Source: Thermodesulfobacteriota bacterium
GTDB taxonomy: Bacteria > Desulfobacterota > Desulfobacteria > Desulfobacterales > B30-G6
Assembly: GCA_039714495.1 (NCBI GenBank)
Contig: JBDLJD010000002.1
Span: 268-64,267 of the forward strand
Length of the DNA: 64,000 nucleotides
Direction of reading: 5' to 3'
Position numbers and translations under genes: made by a program. The stretch's first letter is position 1, and each line of letters begins with the position of its first letter. The notes below the pieces were generated by a model, which saw only the letters and a program-made list of their open reading frames with translations, did not search any database and was not told the origin of the DNA. Positions 44,837 through 60,188 of this stretch are shown one piece after another.

Positions 44837-45154
44837 TTACACACATCCGGTCGGTTTCGGAAGACCGGCCATCTTACAGGCTCCCTTGCCCGGGCCTGAG
44901 GGGAACAGCTCATAGATGTGTTTCAGTTTGAAACCGGTAACCTTGGAAAGAACGCGAACCATAGGTGCGATACCATTCTTTTCGTAGTACTCTCTCAGAA
45001 CGGTAATAACTTTCTGATGCTCGTCGTTCAATTCTTCAATACCTTCTTCCTTTTTGACCAACTGAACCCATTCTTGGCTCCAGTTTTCATAGGAATCGAT
45101 AAATCCATCTTCATCAACACTGAAAGTTTTTCCCTGAAATTCTACTTCTGGCAT
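44837..45154 (-). CDS. dsrC: DsrC (dissimilatory sulfite reductase-associated protein; TusE/DsrC family with both C-terminal Cys)
   Basis: 105 aa ending ...GKGACKMAGLPKPTGCV, with the penultimate Cys and the Cys 11 residues upstream. Strong RBS AAAGGAGGG. Confidence 0.9.
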   Translation of the reverse strand: MPEVEFQGKTFSVDEDGFIDSYENWSQEWVQLVKKEEGIEELNDEHQKVITVLREYYEKNGIAPMVRVLSKVTGFKLKHIYELFPSGPGKGACKMAGLPKPTGCV

Positions 45155-48319: not shown

Positions 48320-48751
48320 TTATGCTACCTTGGCCTCGTGCTTGGCAAAATGCGTGTTCGGTCCCAGGGCTCTAACCTTTTCCGTAACTTCCTTGACCAC
48401 CTCCACAAATTTAGTGGATTCGGCCGAAGAGATCCACGAGTAGTGAATCCGGTCCGGTTCGATGCCCATGTGTTCCATGAGGTTTTTAAACAGCGAGAAT
48501 TTCCGACGAGCGTAGTAATTACCTTCCAGGTAATGGCATTCGCCGGGATGTCACCCGGACACCCAGACGCCGTCGGCGCCTTCCCTGAGAGCGGCCATGG
48601 CGAACTTGGGGCTCATGCGGCCGCTGCAGGGGATCCGGATGACCCGGATGTTGGAGGGGTACTCCATCCGGCTGACGCCTGCCAGGTCGGCAGCGCCGTA
48701 GCTGCACCAGTTACAAAGGAAACTGACGATTTTCGGTTCCCATTCTGACAT
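48320..48751 (-). CDS. mvhD: MvhD-type (methyl-viologen-reducing hydrogenase delta / FlpD) protein with in-frame UGA (selenocysteine)
   Basis: [25 protein letters not shown]...[12 protein letters not shown](48551-48553)[18 protein letters not shown]...HEAKVA. The reading frame and family similarity continue for 76 codons after the TGA, which replaces the first Cys of the GGCHxGDCHY motif. The start at 48751 follows AAGGAG; 48775 is an alternative. Confidence 0.8.
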
Positions 48752-48913
48752 TGTTGTAATCTCCTTCTCTGACATTTGATCTGTTTCCGCTGCCGTCCAG
48801 CCGATTGGATCAAACCATTTTATTTACAAAGTCCGAGGATTCTATGATTAGAGTGTTGGTAGCCGATGCGTTTTACTTGAAACCTTGGCCCCGCGACCCC
48901 TTGAATCCTGTAA

Positions 48914-54676: not shown

Positions 54677-55063
54677 TCAGCAATTTGCGGGCAATTGCAC
54701 CACAGGGCAGTTCTCCACGCAGGCGCCGCATCCGGTGCAGAGATCCATGTTGATGCTTCGGGCGCGCTTTTTAACTTTTACTTTAAAATTGCCTGATTCG
54801 CCTTCGACAGATTCAAGATCTGCATATGTGATAAGCTCGATGTTCAGATGCCGGCCGACCTCGACCAGTACAGGGGAAATAATTCACATCGCGCAGTCAT
54901 TGGTGGGAAAGGTCTTGTCCAGTTGCGACATGACGCCACCTATGGAGGGGGATTTCTCAAGAAGGTAAACATAGTACCCGGAATTTGCCAGGTCGAGCGC
55001 GGACTGCATTCCGGCGATACCACCACCGACAACCAGTACCGAACCGATTACATCCTTTGCCAT
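54677..55063 (-). CDS. 128-aa stand-alone HdrA N-terminal fragment with in-frame UGA (selenocysteine)
   Basis: ATG at 55063 follows AGGAGA. The product is [62 protein letters not shown](54884-54886)[68 protein letters not shown]. Stop TGA is at 54677-54679. I translated the 68 post-UGA codons by hand and found no other stop. Confidence 0.75.
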
Positions 55064-55176: not shown

Positions 55177-55225
55177 TAGAATTTGGCGAGAAATGAATGC
55201 GAATTCATTTGTTTTTTCTTATGGA

Positions 55226-55269
55226 AAAACTAGAACAGCCTGACCGGTTGGTCAGGCTGTTCTAGTTTT
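55226..55269 (-). terminator. Strong rho-independent terminator after the double-receiver gene
   Basis: Perfect 20-bp stem AAAACTAGAACAGCCTGACC-GGTT-GGTCAGGCTGTTCTAGTTTT with T-runs on both strands. Confidence 0.8.
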
Positions 55270-55290
55270 CACCCATTGCGAAAAAGGGAA

Positions 55291-56955
55291 TTAAGCAGCT
55301 AAGTGGAGCGCCTTCTCCGTGGCATTGCGAATTTCATCCGGCGTAAACGGCTTGGGCAGGTAATCGACGGCGCCCATGCGCGTGGCCTCCACAGCAGTCT
55401 CGATACTGGCGTAGCCGGTGATCATGATGACCTTGGCTTCGGGATTGTTGTCCCGGATGGCCTGGAGGAGTTCAAGCCCTTGCACCCCCGGTATCTTGAG
55501 ATCCAGCAGGATCAGCTTGTAGGGATGGGCCGCGATTCTTTCGAGGGCTTCTTCCTTGGTCACGGCCTGGTCCACCTGATAGTCATTTTTAACCAGAATT
55601 TTACGGATATTGTTGTTGACCGCCACCTCGTCATCGATGACCAGAATGTTTTTGTGCACTGATTCCTTGGGGAATTCGTAAACATGGGCAGTGGGGGCGT
55701 CCTGCTCGGCCATCATGCGGGCGACATTCTGCTTCAGGGTTTCATAAGGGACCTGCACGATACCGTCATAAACCAGGTTTTCCACATAGGCAGTGCCGGT
55801 CACGGCCATAACTTCTTCGTAATTAAAGGGTTGGTCGATACCGATCAGCTTTTTGACATCATGGGTTTTTTGGGCCTTGGCCGCACGCTTTTTCTTAGCC
55901 AGTTGGGGGCACTTCTGGGTCTTGGTTCCAGCCTTGCAGGTGGCGCCCAGTTTTTTGAAGATGTCGCATACCATACTGCCCATCTCGCAGAAGCCTTCCA
56001 ACTGTTCCGATGCAGTGATTTCGATTACGGGCATGTCGGAGGACCCCAGGCTCTTGGCGTATTCTTCTCCGGTTACCTCGGCCACTTCATCACGGTCAAA
56101 GGGGATGTCCACGTCAATGGGTTTGCTTTCCAGAAAGCCGGCCACATTCTTTTTCAATTCCTCGTAGGGTATGTAGGACACGCCTTCATTCTGCATGGCG
56201 TAAACGTACTCGGGGCCGGTCACGGCCGCAACTTCCTCGTAATCAAAGGGCTGGTCAATGCCCACCAGCTTCTTGACGTCCGGCGTCTTCTTGGCCTTGG
56301 CAGCTCTTTTTTTCTTGGCCAGTTGGGGGCACTTCTGGGTCTTGTTGCCGGCCTTGCAGGTGGCGCCCAGCTTTTTGAAGATGTCGCACACCATGCTGCC
56401 CATTTCGCAGAAGCCTTCCAGGGGTTCCAAGGCCTTGACCTCGATGATGGGCATGCCGGAGGGCCCCAGGCTTTTGGCGTATTCCTCGCCGGTTACTTCG
56501 GCCACTTCGTCGGCATCAAAGGGCAGGTCAATGTCGATGGCGTTGATAGCTTCCCGCTCCTCTTTGCTAGTGGGGGCCTCATTGAGCTCGCCGTCCAGCG
56601 CCTTTTCTACCGTGTTGCGCAACTCATCCGGGGTAAACGGTTTTGGGATATAATCCAGGGCGCCCATCTTGATTGCCTTGACGGCCGTGTCCGTGGAGGC
56701 ATAGGCGGTCATCATCACAGCTTTGGTCAGGGGCCACTGCTCTTTGACCAGTTTGAGAAGTTCGAGCCCGTTTTTCCCGGGCATGACAATGTCTGAGATC
56801 AGCAGGGAAAAGGAATCCAAGGCCATTTTTTCCAGGGCCTCGTCTGCGCTCTCCGCGTGTACCACCTCATAGTTGCCTTTCTTGAGGATTTTTTCCACGT
56901 TGCTGCAGATGCTCTTTTCATCATCGACCACGATAATTTTCTGGGCTGCTTCCAT
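55291..56955 (-). CDS. Double receiver-domain protein with a central tandem 140-aa Cys4/Lys-rich repeat
   Basis: 554 aa. REC domains lie at both ends (IIVVDDE...ISDIVMPG...MMTAY...KPF and ILVIDDE...LLDLKIPG...MITGY...KPF). Between them are two about 85%-identical copies of IDxDxPFDxDEVAEVTGEEYAKSLG...EGFCEMGSMVCDIFKKLGATCKAGxKTQKCPQLAKKKRAAKAxKT...IDQPFxYEEVxAVTG. The DNA period is 420 nt (for example 55901 versus 56321). Confidence 0.85.
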   Translation of the reverse strand: MEAAQKIIVVDDEKSICSNVEKILKKGNYEVVHAESADEALEKMALDSFSLLISDIVMPGKNGLELLKLVKEQWPLTKAVMMTAYASTDTAVKAIKMGALDYIPKPFTPDELRNTVEKALDGELNEAPTSKEEREAINAIDIDLPFDADEVAEVTGEEYAKSLGPSGMPIIEVKALEPLEGFCEMGSMVCDIFKKLGATCKAGNKTQKCPQLAKKKRAAKAKKTPDVKKLVGIDQPFDYEEVAAVTGPEYVYAMQNEGVSYIPYEELKKNVAGFLESKPIDVDIPFDRDEVAEVTGEEYAKSLGSSDMPVIEITASEQLEGFCEMGSMVCDIFKKLGATCKAGTKTQKCPQLAKKKRAAKAQKTHDVKKLIGIDQPFNYEEVMAVTGTAYVENLVYDGIVQVPYETLKQNVARMMAEQDAPTAHVYEFPKESVHKNILVIDDEVAVNNNIRKILVKNDYQVDQAVTKEEALERIAAHPYKLILLDLKIPGVQGLELLQAIRDNNPEAKVIMITGYASIETAVEATRMGAVDYLPKPFTPDEIRNATEKALHLAA

Positions 56956-57015: not shown

Positions 57016-57031
57016 TGCACGAGTTGTGCCA
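57016..57031 (-). promoter_or_regulatory. Sigma54 (-24/-12) promoter upstream of the double-receiver gene
   Basis: The minus strand reads TGGCACAACTCGTGCA, with GG and GC at the canonical spacing of TGGCACG-N4-TTGCW. It lies 61-76 nt upstream of the ATG at 56955, which has a GGAGGT RBS. Confidence 0.7.
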
Positions 57032-57106: not shown

Positions 57107-57125
57107 TGTATAATTAAATAATACA
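57107..57125. promoter_or_regulatory. Palindromic candidate enhancer-binding site TGTAT-N9-ATACA (proximal)
   Basis: TGTATAATTAAATAATACA lies about 80-95 nt upstream of the sigma54 promoter. It has the same half-sites and spacing as 57270-57288. Confidence 0.5.
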
Positions 57126-57269: not shown

Positions 57270-57288
57270 TGTATAAAATAAATATACA
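57270..57288. promoter_or_regulatory. Palindromic candidate enhancer-binding site TGTAT-N9-ATACA (distal)
   Basis: TGTATAAAATAAATATACA lies about 240 nt upstream of the sigma54 promoter, just downstream of the activator gene. Confidence 0.5.
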
Positions 57289-57331: not shown

Positions 57332-58759
57332 TCATTTGTTGGGCAGGCGGATGCCGTGCTTTTTCATGAGGCTTTGAAAATTGGTACGCTGCAGGCCTGT
57401 CTTTTCGGCGGCGTGGGTCACGTTCCAATCGTTTTTGATCAGGGCATTGAGCAGAAAGTTCTTTTCCACCTTCTGAACGGCTTTCCGGCGAATATCCTTT
57501 TTAACCTGTTTGAGCTCTGCATTGGTCGCGGGCGTTGCCTCCACAAGGTTATCCAGATCGCCAATTTCTCCCAGCAGGGGGAGGTCCTGGGTGTCGATGG
57601 TGTCCTGATCGCAAAGAATGACAGCGCGTTCGATGACATTACGCAGTTGCCTGACGTTTCCCGGCCAGTCAAAGGAAAGCAGGCGTCCGGCAGCACTGTC
57701 CACTATGCCGGTTATCGATTTGTCCATGTCGCGGCTGAACTGCTTGATAAAATGGTAGGCAATGGGCAGAATATCCATTCTACGTTCACGCAGGGGTGGC
57801 AGCATGATGGGATAGACAAAGATGCGGTAATAGAAATCCTGACGGAAGGAGCCTTCGTTGACCATGGTTTCCAGATTGGTATTGGTGGCGAAGATCAGGC
57901 GCAGGTCCACCTTTTTAGGGGACGTGCCGCCCAGAGGCAGAAACTCACGCGTCTCCAGGAATCTGAGAAGTTTGCCCTGGACCGCCAGGCTGATATTGCT
58001 GATTTCGTCTAAAAACACCGTACCGCTGTCGGCCAGGGACAATATGCCTTCCTTGCTTTTATGTGCACTGGTAAACGCGCCTTTAACATGGCCGAACAGT
58101 TCGCTTTCCAACCGGTTTCCTGCGAGTGTGCCGCAATCAACGGCAAAAAAGACATTCGTGTTGCGCCGACTGTTGGCATGCACGGCTCTGGCGATGAGTT
58201 CCTTGCCGGTGCCGCTTTCACCGTACACCAGAACGGTGGAGTCGGTGGGGGCCACTTTTCCCACCATGGAGATGACTTTCTGAATCTTGGGGCTGCTTCC
58301 GATGAGCTGATGCGATGTCGTTCTTTTTGGGGTGGGACGGGACATCAGCTCCTGGTTCTGCCGCTGCATCTCTTTTTCGCTTAGCGCCTGGAAAACCACG
58401 GCGCGCAATTCATGGGGAGTAAAGGGTTTGGGCAGGTAGTCAAAGGCGCCCATCTTCATTACTTCCACGGCCGAGGCGACACTGGCATAACCGGTAATAA
58501 CCACTACGCGCGTGTCAGGGTAGGTGTCTTTTACCCGGCTCAAAAGTTCCATGCCGCCCAGGCGGCTCATCTTGAGGTCGGTGACAATGACGTCGGACGG
58601 ATCATCCTCCATCAGCTTCAGGGCATCGTACCCATTGAGGGCGTAACGGACGTCGTAATCTTGTTTGGAAAGAATCTTGACGCAACTCTGGCAGATGTTG
58701 TGCTCATCGTCCACAACGAGGACTTTAGGTACACGCTTTACATTGGGCTCAGGCGTCAT
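57332..58759 (-). CDS. NtrC-family sigma54-dependent response regulator (REC + AAA+ + Fis-type HTH)
   Basis: The start is taken at ATG 58759 (MTPEPNVKRVPKVLVVDDE). The product has GESGTGKE, the GAFTSA (GAFTGA-like) sigma54 contact loop, and a C-terminal HTH (WNVTHAAEKTGLQRTNFQSLMKKHGI). The longer ORF back to 59050 runs inside the kinase gene. Confidence 0.9.
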   Translation of the reverse strand: MTPEPNVKRVPKVLVVDDEHNICQSCVKILSKQDYDVRYALNGYDALKLMEDDPSDVIVTDLKMSRLGGMELLSRVKDTYPDTRVVVITGYASVASAVEVMKMGAFDYLPKPFTPHELRAVVFQALSEKEMQRQNQELMSRPTPKRTTSHQLIGSSPKIQKVISMVGKVAPTDSTVLVYGESGTGKELIARAVHANSRRNTNVFFAVDCGTLAGNRLESELFGHVKGAFTSAHKSKEGILSLADSGTVFLDEISNISLAVQGKLLRFLETREFLPLGGTSPKKVDLRLIFATNTNLETMVNEGSFRQDFYYRIFVYPIMLPPLRERRMDILPIAYHFIKQFSRDMDKSITGIVDSAAGRLLSFDWPGNVRQLRNVIERAVILCDQDTIDTQDLPLLGEIGDLDNLVEATPATNAELKQVKKDIRRKAVQKVEKNFLLNALIKNDWNVTHAAEKTGLQRTNFQSLMKKHGIRLPNK

Positions 58760-60188
58760 TTGTTTTAGCCGTTTCCAATGGTATCTTGATAATGAAGGAC
58801 GTTCCCTGGTGTTCCCTTCTTGTTGCCTTGATGGTCCCGCCGTGCTGCTCGATGATGCCGTGGGTGATGGCAAGGCCCAGCCCGGTACCCTCTTCCTTGG
58901 TGGTAAAGAAAGGGTCGAATATCTTGTCAAAGATTTCTTCTGGAACGCCTTCTCCGTTGTCACTGACGGAAATTTCCACCGCGCGGCGGCGGGCGCCCAA
59001 GGATGTACGCAGGACGATGCTGCCCCCGGCCTGGGTGGATTCGATGGCATTGAGGATGAGATTGATCAGGACCTGCTGTATCTGGCCTTTGTCCAGGTGC
59101 AGCGGCGGCAGGTTTGAGGTCAGGTCCTTGCGGACGTCTATATCCTTGAAGGCTGCCTGCTTCTGGGTCAGAAGGACGCTTGCGATGATGATGGCGTTGA
59201 TGTCATTGGCCTTTTTATTGGGCCTGGTCTGCCGGGCGAAATCCAGAAGGCTGGTGACGATTTTCCTGCAGCGCAGGGTTTCCTTGGCAATGGTTTCCAG
59301 CTCCGCATGCATAGGGTCATCCGGATCGATGTCTTCCTGCAGAAGCATGGAGGTTGTCAGGATTGTGGTGAGGGGGTTGTTGATTTCATGGGCCACCCCG
59401 GCGGAAAGCCGGCCTACGGAAGCCAGCTTTTCCTGCTGCATCATTGTCTTCTGGATATTGATTTCATCGGAGATGTCCCGGGATATTTCCACGACGCCGA
59501 CAATGTCACCCCCTTCGATCAGGGGATAGGTGGAAATGGAATAGTAAATCTCATTATCGTCCTGGTCCAGATGAACATGGGTTGTCTGGGACGGTTGGAT
59601 GGTCTCCAGGGTCTTTATGAGAGGGCAGGGATGTTTTTCACCGGTGCAGGGAAAAGACTGGCGGTGGGTTATTTCGTAGCAATACCGGCCGACCACTTCC
59701 TCCTTTTTTAGGCCCAGATTGTTCAACACAGTGTTGTTGACATCGATGATGCGATAGTCGTGGCCGATGACCAGCACTTCTTCCTGAATGAGCTCGTTGA
59801 TCATGGTTTTGTAAAGTGCCTTGGCTTCCTGGAGCTCCTGGCTGGTCTTCTTCTGCTTGGTGGACACCCGGGCGAATTCCCAGAACAACTGGGCGGTCTT
59901 GGTGGATATGGCCCTTACGCTGGGCTTCTTTTTCTTAAGGATGTCGTTGTAGACGTCCATACTGCTGGTGAGTTCGATGATCAAGTCGATGCCGGCCATG
60001 GAGAAGAAATCATTGTAATTGGGGGTGGTGAAAATGCCCTTTTCCTTGGCCATCACAAAACCGGGCGCCTTTTTATTGATATCTGCGACCGCAACGATCT
60101 TCGGATGGATTTCCTTAAACGTGTGCTGCGGGATAAGGAGCAGCAGTTGGGTACAGCGGGTGCCCCCACCGACGACAGCGATATTCAT
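58749..60188 (-). CDS. Cytoplasmic sensor histidine kinase: Rossmann-like N-domain + Cys-rich PAS + HisKA/HATPase
   Basis: 479 aa with no TM segments. The N-terminus is MNIAVVGGGTRCTQLL...KIVAVADIN. The PAS region has CYEITHRQSFPCTGEKHPCP. The H-box is SAGVAHEINNP, and the N and G boxes are LNAIEST and GTGLGL. It overlaps the regulator start by 11 nt. Confidence 0.85.
   Translation of the reverse strand: MNIAVVGGGTRCTQLLLLIPQHTFKEIHPKIVAVADINKKAPGFVMAKEKGIFTTPNYNDFFSMAGIDLIIELTSSMDVYNDILKKKKPSVRAISTKTAQLFWEFARVSTKQKKTSQELQEAKALYKTMINELIQEEVLVIGHDYRIIDVNNTVLNNLGLKKEEVVGRYCYEITHRQSFPCTGEKHPCPLIKTLETIQPSQTTHVHLDQDDNEIYYSISTYPLIEGGDIVGVVEISRDISDEINIQKTMMQQEKLASVGRLSAGVAHEINNPLTTILTTSMLLQEDIDPDDPMHAELETIAKETLRCRKIVTSLLDFARQTRPNKKANDINAIIIASVLLTQKQAAFKDIDVRKDLTSNLPPLHLDKGQIQQVLINLILNAIESTQAGGSIVLRTSLGARRRAVEISVSDNGEGVPEEIFDKIFDPFFTTKEEGTGLGLAITHGIIEQHGGTIKATRREHQGTSFIIKIPLETAKTNDA

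What the first reader, a model, noticed from the sequence alone, without database searches (positions are those of the whole stretch)
55291..56955. Double-receiver protein with a recently duplicated 140-aa Cys4 / lysine-rich / PFD-EVA-VTG-EY module: possible redox- or metal-sensing phospho-relay component
Seen: the protein has REC domains at both termini and no DNA-binding or enzymatic output domain. Between them are two copies (DNA period 420 nt, long identical stretches) of a module with four parts. These are a PFDxDEVAEVTGEEY motif, a C-x6-C-x9-C-x8-C segment (FCEMGSMVCDIFKKLGATCKAGxKTQKCP), a poly-Lys/Ala tract (KKKRAAKAKK), and a second PFxYEEVxAVTGxxY motif. I do not recognise this module as a named domain. 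The gene lies between the HK/NtrC pair and the Hdr-like operon and is itself driven by a sigma54 promoter. Inference: it could be a Cys-based (Fe-S, Zn or thiol/disulfide) sensor or phosphate sink that tunes the adjacent redox operon.
Basis: partly seen in the sequence, partly recalled or inferred. Interest (0 to 1): 0.7.

Follow-up and report, generated by a model that had tools for sequence, protein, structure and literature searches.

The report
Two-receiver regulator with novel four-cysteine module
This is a real, conserved but uncharacterised signalling protein of sulfate-reducing Desulfobacterales: two phospho-receiver domains flank two copies of an unnamed module with four invariant cysteines, and it appears to be the main local product switched on by the neighbouring sensor kinase/sigma-54 activator pair, next to NADH/ferredoxin redox enzyme genes.

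Summary
The gene is on the minus strand (55291-56955, 554 aa). It has two intact receiver (REC) domains and no named output domain. Between them lie two 140-aa copies of a module: acidic "PFD" unit, C-x6-C-x9-C-x8-CP, Lys-rich tract, second PFD unit. The module matches nothing in Pfam, NCBIfam or the PDB, by sequence or by fold.

The duplication is not recent. The copies share 75% nucleotide identity, with 37 synonymous differences, and the longest identical run is 27 nt. The two-copy form is shared by dozens of species.

The family is narrow: 71 clusters among 1.84 billion proteins, in about 170 Desulfobacterales-type genomes. All eight cysteines and both phospho-acceptor aspartates are invariant. 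A PAS kinase and a sigma-54 activator lie directly upstream in 49/54 loci. NuoE/NuoF/HdrA-like genes lie downstream in 49/60, and Rnf in three.

A sigma-54 promoter (76/78 loci) and a TGTAT-N9-ATACA palindrome (50/76) precede this gene but not the redox operon. This gene is therefore the activator's conserved local target.

The Lys-rich/PFD unit also tags GcvH-like proteins in paralogous kinase/activator/Hdr clusters. Metal or Fe-S binding and the phospho-relay role remain inferences.

The parts
55291..56955 (-). Complete gene for the dual-receiver protein (554 aa plus stop)
   Evidence: ORF list and translation. 542 homologues.
56590..56940 (-). REC1 (aa 6-122). D11/D12, acceptor D55, T83 and K105 are present.
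   Evidence: Pfam PF00072. Residues conserved: D55 in 44/44, K105 in 61/61. The alpha1 helix resembles that of the neighbouring activator's REC.
56542..56589 (-). Conserved acidic linker (aa 123-138, ELNEAPTSKEEREAIN)
   Evidence: G122, L124, E126, E133 and I137 are invariant or at least 90% conserved in alignment A1.
56122..56541 (-). Module copy 1 (aa 139-278)
   Evidence: 420-nt repeat, 140-aa offset, HMM domain 139-278.
55702..56121 (-). Module copy 2 (aa 279-418)
   Evidence: Same as copy 1. 74% amino-acid and 75% nucleotide identity to copy 1.
56413..56541 (-). PFD-A unit of copy 1 (aa 139-181), net charge -9
   Evidence: Motif and charge. pLDDT 70-88, strand-helix-helix-strand.
56326..56409 (-). 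Cys4 segment of copy 1 (aa 183-210; C183, C190, C200, C209-P210)
   Evidence: Cysteines invariant in 95/95 modules and 63/63 proteins. Low AF2 confidence.
56263..56325 (-). Lys-rich tract of copy 1 (aa 211-231), net charge +8
   Evidence: Charge calculation.
56122..56262 (-). PFD-B unit of copy 1 (aa 232-278), net charge -6
   Evidence: Together with the Lys-rich tract, it also occurs at the N-terminus of GcvH-like proteins.
55993..56121 (-). PFD-A unit of copy 2 (aa 279-321)
55906..55989 (-). Cys4 segment of copy 2 (aa 323-350; C323, C330, C340, C349-P350)
   Evidence: Cysteines present in 56-57 of 57-58 sequences that cover the site.
55843..55905 (-). Lys-rich tract of copy 2 (aa 351-371), net charge +7
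55702..55842 (-). PFD-B unit of copy 2 (aa 372-418)
   Evidence: pLDDT 61-76 in the full-length model.
55306..55653 (-). REC2 (aa 435-550). D441/D442, acceptor D485, T513 and K535 are present.
   Evidence: Pfam best stretch 437-546. D485 conserved in 49/49.
57016..57031 (-). Sigma-54 type -24/-12 promoter, TGGCACAACTCGTGCA
   Evidence: An equivalent element lies 61-113 nt upstream of the ATG in 76/78 family loci, against 0/78 control regions.
57270..57288 (-). Palindrome TGTATATTTATTTTATACA, a candidate activator-binding site (UAS)
   Evidence: TGTAT-N9-ATACA is found upstream of this gene's promoter in 50/76 loci, always with a 9-nt spacer. It is found in 2/76 random controls and 2/54 regions in front of nuoE.
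57107..57125 (-). Second copy of the palindrome, TGTATTATTTAATTATACA
55225..55270 (-). Perfect 21-bp hairpin followed by UUUUU, directly after the stop codon (intrinsic terminator)
   Evidence: MFE -41 kcal/mol, z = -9.5. Stable hairpins are conserved after the stop in the family: median -28 against -12.6 kcal/mol for shuffles. A U-tract is present in 35/77.
57332..58762 (-). Neighbouring REC-AAA+(sigma-54)-lid activator (EBP), the probable activator of this gene
   Evidence: Pfam. Directly upstream together with the kinase in 49/54 loci.
58749..60188 (-). Neighbouring PAS-HisKA-HATPase kinase with an invariant Cys triad in the PAS domain
   Evidence: Pfam. C170, C181 and C188 conserved in 59/59 orthologues and in paralogues.

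Best explanation
The protein is an output-less, dual-receiver two-component protein.

Expression (shown by conserved sequence signals). Its gene is the conserved local sigma-54 target of the adjacent PAS-kinase/activator pair. It is transcribed from its own -24/-12 promoter with upstream TGTAT-N9-ATACA sites. A strong hairpin separates it from the NuoEF/HdrA-like operon.

Mechanism (inferred).
- Once made, its two intact receiver domains take phosphoryl groups from the same kinase. REC1, whose alpha1 helix resembles that of the activator's REC, is the likelier direct substrate.
- It thereby feeds back on the kinase/activator circuit.
- The central modules act as a protein-protein interaction and sensing platform. 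Each carries one Cys4 site, most likely a metal centre (probably Fe-S) held in a strongly basic segment. Each also carries acidic PFD units that dock onto a partner.
- Phosphorylation state and the state of the Cys4 centres together set the protein's conformation or partner binding. This couples cellular redox state (NADH/ferredoxin/thiol) to control of the neighbouring electron-transfer enzymes.

I consider the receiver architecture, the expression logic and the redox-operon association established. The metal site, the phosphate flow and the docking partner are inferences.
For: Architecture and conservation:
- Two REC domains with all catalytic residues.
- No output domain, and no Pfam, NCBIfam or PDB match for the middle region. 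No fold match either.
- All eight Cys are invariant, ending in a 'CP' as in ferredoxin-type ligands. A distant 380-412-aa subfamily keeps C-x6-C-x8/9-C-x2-5-C(P).
- The Cys4 plus Lys-rich segment has net charge +10/+11, and the PFD units -5 to -10.
- AF2 gives confident REC domains and moderately confident PFD units, but a poorly defined Cys4 segment. This fits a cofactor-dependent fold.

Context:
- Kinase and activator directly upstream in 49/54 loci.
- NuoE/F/HdrA downstream in 49/60. Rnf downstream in L047, L057 and L065.
- Sigma-54 promoter in 76/78 loci, and UAS palindrome in 50/76, only in front of this gene. Terminator after the stop.
- REC1 alpha1 (SICSNVEKIL) resembles the activator's alpha1 (NICQSCVKIL), whereas REC2 differs (VAVNNNIRKIL).
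- The Lys-rich/PFD-B unit is portable. It also heads GcvH-like proteins encoded after paralogous kinase/activator pairs in Hdr clusters.

Precedent: a Cys-ligated [4Fe-4S] redox sensor exists in a sigma-54 system of a sulfate reducer (OrpR, PMC8359166).
Against: - There is no homology to any known metal-binding domain. The Cys spacing (6/9/8) is not a known Fe-S or Zn signature.
- AF2 does not produce a compact site.
- The kinase PAS domain has its own invariant Cys triad. It could be the only redox sensor, leaving the Cys4 sites structural.
- The phosphate-sink or feedback role rests only on alpha1 similarity and gene order.
- The partner of the PFD units is unknown. A test for specific coupling to REC-bearing HdrA was negative (4/12 against 1/5).
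- Some loci have no redox operon downstream (L063 and L076 have hybrid kinases).
- How the redox operon itself is transcribed (own promoter or read-through) is unresolved.
Confidence: 0.42

Rival explanations
1. Regulatory subunit or adaptor acting directly on the enzyme. The PFD/Lys-rich units tether the protein to the Hdr-like/NuoEF (or Rnf) electron-transfer complex, or to its carrier proteins. The phosphorylation state of the two REC domains then switches enzyme activity post-translationally. The Cys4 centres may even exchange electrons with acidic ferredoxin.
For: - The same Lys-rich/PFD-B unit heads GcvH-like (lipoyl-carrier type) proteins in Hdr clusters: 44/49 full-length members, with 2-3 tagged genes per locus.
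- In those clusters HdrA can carry an inserted REC domain 44-46% identical to this protein's REC domains. This shows that receivers of this type can be physically part of the enzyme.
- The redox operon lacks the sigma-54 and UAS signals, so the kinase/activator pair reaches it only through this protein or through read-through.
- The Cys4 segments are basic.
Against: - REC-bearing HdrA is not specifically coupled to PFD-tagged proteins.
- Several loci have Rnf or signalling genes instead of Hdr/NuoEF downstream.
- No interaction data or multimer modelling was possible.
Confidence: 0.2
2. Purely structural cysteines. The Cys4 sites bind zinc (or nothing) and only stabilise a scaffold. Redox sensing is done by the kinase PAS domain. 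The protein is a plain phosphate sink or connector.
For: - Invariant Cys triad in the kinase PAS domain, in orthologues and paralogues.
- OrpR precedent for a PAS Fe-S sensor.
- Family members and small derivatives exist that lack the Cys segment but keep both PFD units (P0179; 107-129-aa proteins).
Against: - No CxxC knuckles typical of Zn ribbons.
- No recurrent zinc-finger Pfam hits in 42 modules.
- Strict invariance of four Cys plus 'CP' and of neighbouring residues (G186, T199, K201, G203, K205) across the family suggests more than a simple staple.
Confidence: 0.22
3. Atypical nucleic-acid-binding regulator. The Lys-rich tracts, together with the two-helix PFD units, bind DNA (or RNA). 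The protein would then be the transcription factor for the downstream redox operon.
For: - Two Lys-rich tracts of net charge +7/+8.
- PFD units are predicted as helix-turn-helix-like pairs with an A-x3-G spacing.
- The downstream operon lacks sigma-54 signals and needs some other control.
Against: - PFD units are strongly acidic, net -5 to -10.
- No HTH family matches, and no fold match.
- The same unit sits on GcvH-like carrier proteins, where DNA binding is implausible.
- No conserved operator was found in front of nuoE. The palindrome AAATGAAT-N4-ATTCATTT is present only in the window and its closest relative.
Confidence: 0.08
4. Thiol-based switch. The four cysteines form reversible disulfides, persulfides or polysulfides that report the state of the DsrC/heterodisulfide pool, rather than binding a metal.
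For: - Context of HdrA-like, FlpD and DsrC-like genes in the same operon.
- C183 and C190 are seven residues apart on a predicted helix, so on the same face.
Against: - The terminal 'CP' and the four-ligand count are more typical of a metal site.
- There is no homology to known thiol switches.
- Not testable in silico.
Confidence: 0.08

Closest known systems
FrzZ-type dual-receiver proteins (Myxococcus xanthus FrzZ; literature found, e.g. PMC3441718)
   Same: Two CheY-like receiver domains in one polypeptide with no enzymatic or DNA-binding output. They act by protein-protein contacts.
   Different: FrzZ has a short linker and belongs to a chemosensory pathway (my recollection). Here about 300 aa of Cys4/PFD modules separate the receivers, and the gene is sigma-54-dependent and tied to redox operons. 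No orthology was tested or expected.
Single-domain response regulators acting as phosphate sinks or connectors (e.g. Sinorhizobium CheY1, Caulobacter DivK/CpdR; from my own knowledge)
   Same: Receiver-only proteins that modulate a pathway by competing for phosphoryl groups or by binding partners.
   Different: Those have one REC and no cofactor-type insert. The sink behaviour of this protein is untested.
OrpR of Desulfovibrio vulgaris (PMC8359166) and NreB-type PAS Fe-S sensors
   Same: Cys-ligated [4Fe-4S] used for redox sensing in sigma-54 or two-component regulation in anaerobes. The kinase next to this gene has an analogous invariant Cys triad in its PAS domain.
   Different: In OrpR the cluster sits in a PAS domain of the activator itself (C52/C61/C65). 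The Cys4 segment here is not a PAS domain and has no detectable homology to it.
NtrC-family sigma-54 activators (best NCBIfam partial hits: NtrC, AtoC, ZraR)
   Same: The REC domains are of the NtrC-like type and are 44-47% identical to the REC of the neighbouring activator.
   Different: There is no AAA+ sigma-54 interaction domain and no HTH, so the protein cannot activate sigma-54 itself.
PFD-tagged Cys-rich GcvH-like proteins of Desulfobacterales (uncharacterised)
   Same: They share the Lys-rich leader plus PFD-B unit (up to 69% identity over about 50 aa). They also share the genomic logic: directly after a paralogous PAS kinase and sigma-54 activator, next to Hdr-like genes.
   Different: The rest of the protein is a different Cys-rich region plus a GcvH (PF01597) domain, with no REC domains.

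Membership tests
Response regulator receiver domain (PF00072) | Profile match above the curated cut-off | tested here: met
   197.5 bits against a cut-off of 30.2, with two stretches.
Response regulator receiver domain (PF00072) | Acidic pair, phospho-acceptor Asp, Thr/Ser and Lys of the active site, in both domains | tested here: met
   D11/D12/D55/T83/K105 and D441/D442/D485/T513/K535. Conserved in all or nearly all homologues that cover the sites.
Response regulator receiver domain (PF00072) | Actual phosphorylation by a histidine kinase | not testable with these tools
   Needs in vitro phosphotransfer.
NtrC-family sigma-54 enhancer-binding protein | AAA+ sigma-54 interaction domain (PF00158) and C-terminal HTH | tested here: not met
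   Neither domain is found. NCBIfam NtrC-type models match only the REC parts and score far below their cut-offs.
DNA-binding response regulators (OmpR/NarL/LytTR types) | Recognisable DNA-binding output domain | tested here: not met
   No such Pfam or NCBIfam domain. The database names 'OmpR family' given by sources are generic.
FrzZ-like dual receiver proteins | REC-REC architecture without an output domain | tested here: met
FrzZ-like dual receiver proteins | Short linker and association with a Che-type pathway | tested here: not met
   The insert is 300 aa. The neighbours are a PAS kinase, a sigma-54 activator and redox enzymes.
Fe-S cluster redox sensors (FNR, NreB, OrpR, ...) | Conserved set of 3-4 Cys ligands | tested here: met
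   Four invariant Cys per module, also in the distant subfamily.
Fe-S cluster redox sensors (FNR, NreB, OrpR, ...) | Sequence or fold homology to a known cluster-binding domain | tested here: not met
   No hit in Pfam, NCBIfam, PDB sequences or PDB folds.
Fe-S cluster redox sensors (FNR, NreB, OrpR, ...) | Bound Fe-S cluster with redox-dependent behaviour | not testable with these tools
   Needs anaerobic purification, UV-vis, EPR and metal analysis.
Zinc ribbon / zinc finger | Paired CxxC (or CxxH) knuckles, or a match to a zf profile | tested here: not met
   Spacing is 6/9/8. Only single, non-significant zf-CCCH hits in 1 of 42 modules.
OAM_dimer (PF16554), the weak hit seen on the full protein | Score above the gathering threshold and recurrence in homologues | tested here: not met
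   18.9 bits against a cut-off of 25. Only 1 of 42 modules matches, at E = 0.15.

The most novel reading that the evidence does not exclude
The Lys-rich/PFD unit is a portable docking tag of Desulfobacterales. It recruits different proteins (this dual-receiver/Cys4 protein, GcvH-like carrier proteins) to a common partner in Hdr-type electron-bifurcating machinery, or to receiver domains built into it. This protein would then be a phosphorylation- and redox-gated regulatory subunit. Through it, a two-component system would control an energy-conserving enzyme complex directly at the protein level rather than through transcription.
Probability: 0.15. Interest if true: 0.8.

Novelty: new variant of a known kind. 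Interest (0 to 1): 0.6.

Why it matters
Desulfobacterales are major carbon and sulfur cyclers in marine sediments. How they regulate their many Hdr/NuoEF/Rnf-type NADH-ferredoxin modules is essentially unknown.

This family is conserved in about 170 species. It defines a three-gene regulatory cassette: a Cys-bearing PAS kinase, a sigma-54 activator, and a dual-receiver Cys4 protein. The only conserved sigma-54 target of the cassette is the dual-receiver protein itself.

Three outcomes would follow:
- If the Cys4 sites bind Fe-S, this would be a new cofactor-bearing class of response regulator.
- If the PFD unit is a docking tag shared with GcvH-like proteins, it would point to direct post-translational control of electron-bifurcating enzymes.
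- Either way, the module deserves a domain-family entry, and the proteins deserve better names than 'OmpR family regulator/flavodoxin'.

Tried and rejected
1. Naming the module by homology. Pfam and NCBIfam on the protein, Pfam on 42 modules individually, and PDB sequence search with a single sequence and a profile gave nothing significant. The OAM_dimer hint is rejected.

2. Structure.
   - The full-length AF2 model has confident REC domains and a poor middle region.
   - The module-only AF2 model, from a broadened alignment, has mean pLDDT 71 and pTM 0.31, with no compact fold.
   - Foldseek against the PDB found no match with E < 6.

3. Idea that the PFD motif derives from, or mimics, REC beta5-alpha5 (PFTPDEL). 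hhalign finds exactly that local match, but with probability 9.5% and P 0.003. Kept only as a lead.

4. Idea that 'stand-alone' module proteins prove an autonomous domain.
   - The Cys-containing 160-190-aa forms look like frameshifted or decayed REC-module-REC genes.
   - The 107-129-aa PFD-linker-PFD proteins are consistent in length but sit in unrelated contexts. They were uninformative.

5. Idea that PFD units dock specifically on REC-bearing HdrA. The contrast test across 79 metagenome loci gave 4/12 against 1/5, so the idea is not supported.

6. Recent duplication or gene conversion: rejected. TRF finds no tandem array at its thresholds.

7. Sigma-54 promoter or UAS in front of the redox operon: absent in most loci. 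The sigma-70 scan was not above chance.

8. A palindrome in front of the operon (55191-55210) is not conserved.

9. Literature searches found no description of this protein family.
Full report
**What is there.**
- The finding's coordinates hold one ORF on the minus strand, 55291-56955, encoding 554 aa.
- Pfam detects two receiver (REC) stretches (E 6e-59, best stretch 437-546) and nothing else above threshold. NCBIfam models of NtrC, AtoC, FixJ and similar proteins match only the REC parts, far below their cut-offs.
- Between the receivers (aa 139-418) is a direct repeat with a 420-nt period, which is a 140-aa offset with 104 identical residues.
- Each copy has four parts:
  - an acidic PFD-A unit (IDxDxPFDxDEVAEVTGEEYAKSLG...);
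  - FCEMGSMVCDIFKKLGATCKAGxKTQKCP, which is C-x6-C-x9-C-x8-CP;
  - a Lys-rich tract (QLAKKKRAAKAxK...);
  - a PFD-B unit (IDQPFxYEEVxAVTGxxY...PYExLKxNVA).
- Net charges are -9/-10 for PFD-A, +3 for the Cys4 segment, +8/+7 for the Lys-rich tract and -6/-5 for PFD-B.

**The duplication is old, not recent.**
- Over the full 420 nt the copies are 75% identical. 37 of the 103 codons that keep the same amino acid differ synonymously. The longest identical run is 27 nt.
- Tandem Repeats Finder reports nothing at its thresholds.
- In 46 homologues with two complete modules, module 1 is always closest to module 1 of another species. For the window this is 89%, against 74% to its own module 2.
- The two-copy state therefore predates the radiation of this clade, and the similarity reflects purifying selection.
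- Three 414-aa single-module relatives (P0074, P0091, P0099) are 69-84% identical to both window modules. They may be secondary recombinational deletions.

**The family.**
- A search with the inter-REC region alone found 542 homologues, named at best 'response regulator', 'CheY-like' or 'OmpR family regulator/flavodoxin'.
- An exhaustive profile search of 1.84 billion representative proteins found only 71 clusters.
- A scan of one genome per species found relatives in 170 genomes. The 80 best loci returned are almost all from Desulfobacterales-type organisms: Desulfosarcina, Desulfatitalea, Desulfococcus, Desulfonema, Desulfatibacillum, Desulfatirhabdium and Desulfobacterium sp. N47.
- The closest locus is a Desulfobacterales MAG (L004, 88% identity).
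- All four Cys are invariant in 95 modules. Across full proteins all eight are conserved (63/63 for copy 1; 56-57 of 57-58 for copy 2). Both phospho-acceptor sites are conserved as well (D55 in 44/44, D485 in 49/49).
- A distant subfamily of 380-412 aa keeps the plan REC - IDVDMPFxxxEVxxxTSxxYVxxLxRSDIP - C-x6-C-x8/9-C-x2-5-C(P) - basic helix - second IDVDMPF unit - REC.
- The ancestral module is therefore PFD - Cys4 - basic - PFD. The two PFD units are themselves repeats.

**No known domain or fold.**
- There is no significant hit in Pfam, NCBIfam, PDB sequences (single sequence or profile) or, for 42 modules scanned individually, any recurrent Pfam family.
- The 18.9-bit OAM_dimer hint is below threshold and is not reproduced.
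- AlphaFold2 models the REC domains at pLDDT above 90. The middle region is poor in the full-length model (below 50 around the Cys4 and basic segments).
- A module-only run with a broadened alignment gives mean pLDDT 71 and pTM 0.31. The PFD units reach 70-89 (strand, two short helices, strand; PFD-B is followed by a long helix). The Cys4 segment reaches only 49-61.
- Foldseek against the PDB finds nothing (best E 6.9).
- This pattern fits small, locally structured acidic units plus a segment that needs a cofactor or partner to fold.

**Genomic logic.**
- In the window the order on the minus strand is as follows:
  - PAS-HisKA-HATPase kinase (58749-60188);
  - REC-AAA+ sigma-54 activator (57332-58762);
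  - this gene;
  - a small HdrA-N-terminal ORF with an in-frame TGA;
  - NuoE- and NuoF-like genes;
  - a 1085-aa NuoG-N/HdrA-like fusion;
  - an FlpD/MvhD-like gene with an in-frame TGA;
  - three Fe-S/flavin subunits;
  - a DsrC-like gene.
- Across 80 family loci, the kinase and activator are directly upstream in 49/54 testable cases, with two more separated by an insertion.
- NuoE follows within 2 kb in 49/60.
- Among the exceptions, three carry a complete Rnf operon instead and two carry hybrid kinases.
- The cassette is thus tied to NADH/ferredoxin electron-transfer modules.

**Expression signals.**
- The element TGGCACaactcGTGCA (57016-57031, minus) matches the sigma-54 consensus with one mismatch.
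- An equivalent element, with invariant GG/GC and at most 2 mismatches, lies 61-113 nt upstream of the start codon in 76/78 loci. It occurs in 0/78 control regions, and in only 3/54 of the regions between this gene and nuoE.
- A 19-bp palindrome, TGTAT-N9-ATACA, always has a 9-nt spacer. It lies upstream of that promoter in 50/76 loci, with two copies in the window at 57270-57288 and 57107-57125. It occurs in 2/76 random controls and 2/54 regions in front of the redox operon.
- This is the expected arrangement for an enhancer-binding activator.
- Directly after the stop codon is a perfect 21-bp hairpin plus U-tract (-41 kcal/mol, z -9.5). Stable hairpins are conserved there (median -28 against -12.6 kcal/mol), with a U-tract in 35/77.
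- The conserved local sigma-54 target of the neighbouring activator is therefore this gene itself.
- How the redox operon is transcribed (own promoter or read-through) remains open.

**Where redox might be sensed.**
- The kinase's PAS domain has an invariant C170-x10-C181-x6-C188-P triad. It is present in 59/59 orthologues and in the paralogous kinases.
- OrpR of Desulfovibrio vulgaris uses three conserved PAS cysteines to hold a redox-sensitive [4Fe-4S] cluster in a sigma-54 system (PMC8359166).
- The system therefore has two candidate Cys-based sites: the kinase PAS domain and the Cys4 modules.
- The three REC domains of the locus are 44-47% identical. REC1's alpha1 helix resembles that of the activator, whereas REC2's does not. 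This is a hint, no more, that REC1 shares the kinase with the activator.

**A portable unit.**
- Profile hits to only the second half of the module led to a family of about 360 aa: Lys-rich leader (median 24 aa, net +6), PFD-B unit, a different Cys-rich region, and a GcvH domain (PF01597). 44 of 49 full-length members carry the tag.
- In L090 and L091 these genes lie directly after a paralogous PAS kinase (32-34% identity) and sigma-54 activator (38-39%). One or two further GcvH paralogues there are also PFD-tagged.
- They lie next to an HdrA-HdrC-HdrB-FrhB-FlpD cluster. Its HdrA contains an inserted REC domain 44-46% identical to the REC domains studied here.
- This suggested that PFD units might dock on such receivers.
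- A contrast test on 79 metagenome loci did not support a specific coupling. REC-bearing HdrA occurs in 4/12 tagged against 1/5 untagged loci, and the kinase/activator pair accompanies both forms.
- The Lys-rich/PFD-B unit is therefore a separable element shared by two protein families in paralogous regulatory/redox clusters. Its partner is unknown.
- The resemblance of the PFD motif to REC beta5-alpha5 (PFTPDEL) is weak (hhalign probability 9.5%).

**Interpretation.**
- Established:
  - a conserved, intact dual-receiver protein without an output domain;
  - a new module with four invariant cysteines;
  - sigma-54/UAS-driven expression next to its kinase and activator;
  - a tight association with NuoEF/HdrA-like or Rnf operons.
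- Inferred (confidence about 0.4):
  - the Cys4 sites are metal, probably Fe-S, centres;
  - the receivers draw phosphate from the neighbouring kinase and feed back on the circuit;
  - the PFD units dock the protein on a partner, so that phosphorylation and redox state jointly control the neighbouring electron-transfer system.
- Rivals:
  - a direct regulatory subunit of the enzyme complex (0.2);
  - structural Zn with all sensing in the kinase (0.22);
  - atypical nucleic-acid binding (0.08);
  - a thiol/persulfide switch (0.08).

**Novelty.**
- No paper in the searchable library describes this family.
- It is a new variant of a known kind: a response regulator carrying a new, probably cofactor-binding module and a portable docking-type unit.
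- It is of moderate-to-high interest for anaerobe bioenergetics and two-component signalling.

Noticed in passing
window 54677-55063 (-): A small ORF lies between this gene and nuoE. It encodes an HdrA-like N-terminal FAD-binding piece with an in-frame TGA at 54884-54886, in the motif [13 protein letters not shown]. Read through, it gives 128 aa ending in a Fer4 motif, so selenocysteine is likely. The same 59-61-aa truncated call appears in L001 and L002.
   Followed up: partly
window 48320-48775 (-): An FlpD/MvhD-like gene (151 codons) has an in-frame TGA at 48551-48553 (VSG-U-HPGECHY), so selenocysteine is likely. It is not listed as one ORF by the ORF finder, and homologues in L001 and L002 are split in the same way.
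   Followed up: partly
window 59625-59681 (-), kinase aa 170-188: The PAS domain of the neighbouring kinase has an invariant C-x10-C-x6-CP triad (CYEITHRQSFPCTGEKHPCP). It is conserved in 59/59 orthologues and in paralogous kinases (L090, L091). This recalls the [4Fe-4S]-binding PAS domain of OrpR.
   Followed up: partly
window 59799-60188 (-), kinase aa 1-130: The N-terminal roughly 130 aa of the kinase (MNIAVVGGGTRC...) look like a Rossmann-type dinucleotide-binding start but match no Pfam family. The motif (AIVGGGxxC) is conserved in the paralogous kinases.
   Followed up: partly
L090 14073-17522 (-); also L091 1-3093, L093, L103, L106, L107, L169: An HdrA-like protein of about 1150 aa has a receiver (REC) domain inserted at about aa 184-300. 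That REC is 44-46% identical to the REC domains of the protein studied here. This is a redox enzyme with a built-in two-component receiver.
   Followed up: partly
L090 9001-10889; L091 8616-11794; L092-L126: Tandem GcvH-like genes (2-3 per locus) each carry the Lys-rich/PFD-B N-terminal tag. The first also has a two-part Cys-rich region (CxWMxAGxINFRxCDxxYDCxxCPFD; PCIHFxSGRIxxPxxCxxNYxCxxC). A Peptidase_M54 gene sits between the activator and these genes.
   Followed up: partly
L065 11656-17548; L057; L047: In three species the kinase/activator/dual-receiver cassette is followed by a complete rnfCDGEAB operon instead of NuoEF/HdrA.
   Followed up: yes
proteins P0198-P0230 (e.g. L088 7001-7369): About 35 clusters of 107-129-aa proteins consist of two IDVDMPF-type PFD units joined by a short basic linker. 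They have no Cys segment and no REC, and sit in unrelated genomic contexts. 160-190-aa relatives keep the Cys4 segment plus a decayed REC start.
   Followed up: partly
proteins P0074, P0091, P0099 (414 aa): These are natural single-module versions of the protein, 69-84% identical to both window modules. They are possibly products of recombination between the two copies.
   Followed up: no
window 55191-55210 (-): A perfect palindrome, AAATGAAT-tcgc-ATTCATTT, lies between the terminator and the small HdrA-N ORF. It is present only in the window and its closest relative (L004), so it is not a family feature.
   Followed up: yes
window 44837-45154 (-): A DsrC-like protein with the C-terminal ...CKMAGLPKPTGCV lies at the end of the gene cluster. 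This suggests a DsrC-type thiol/trisulfide carrier as substrate of the NuoEF/HdrA-like complex.
   Followed up: no
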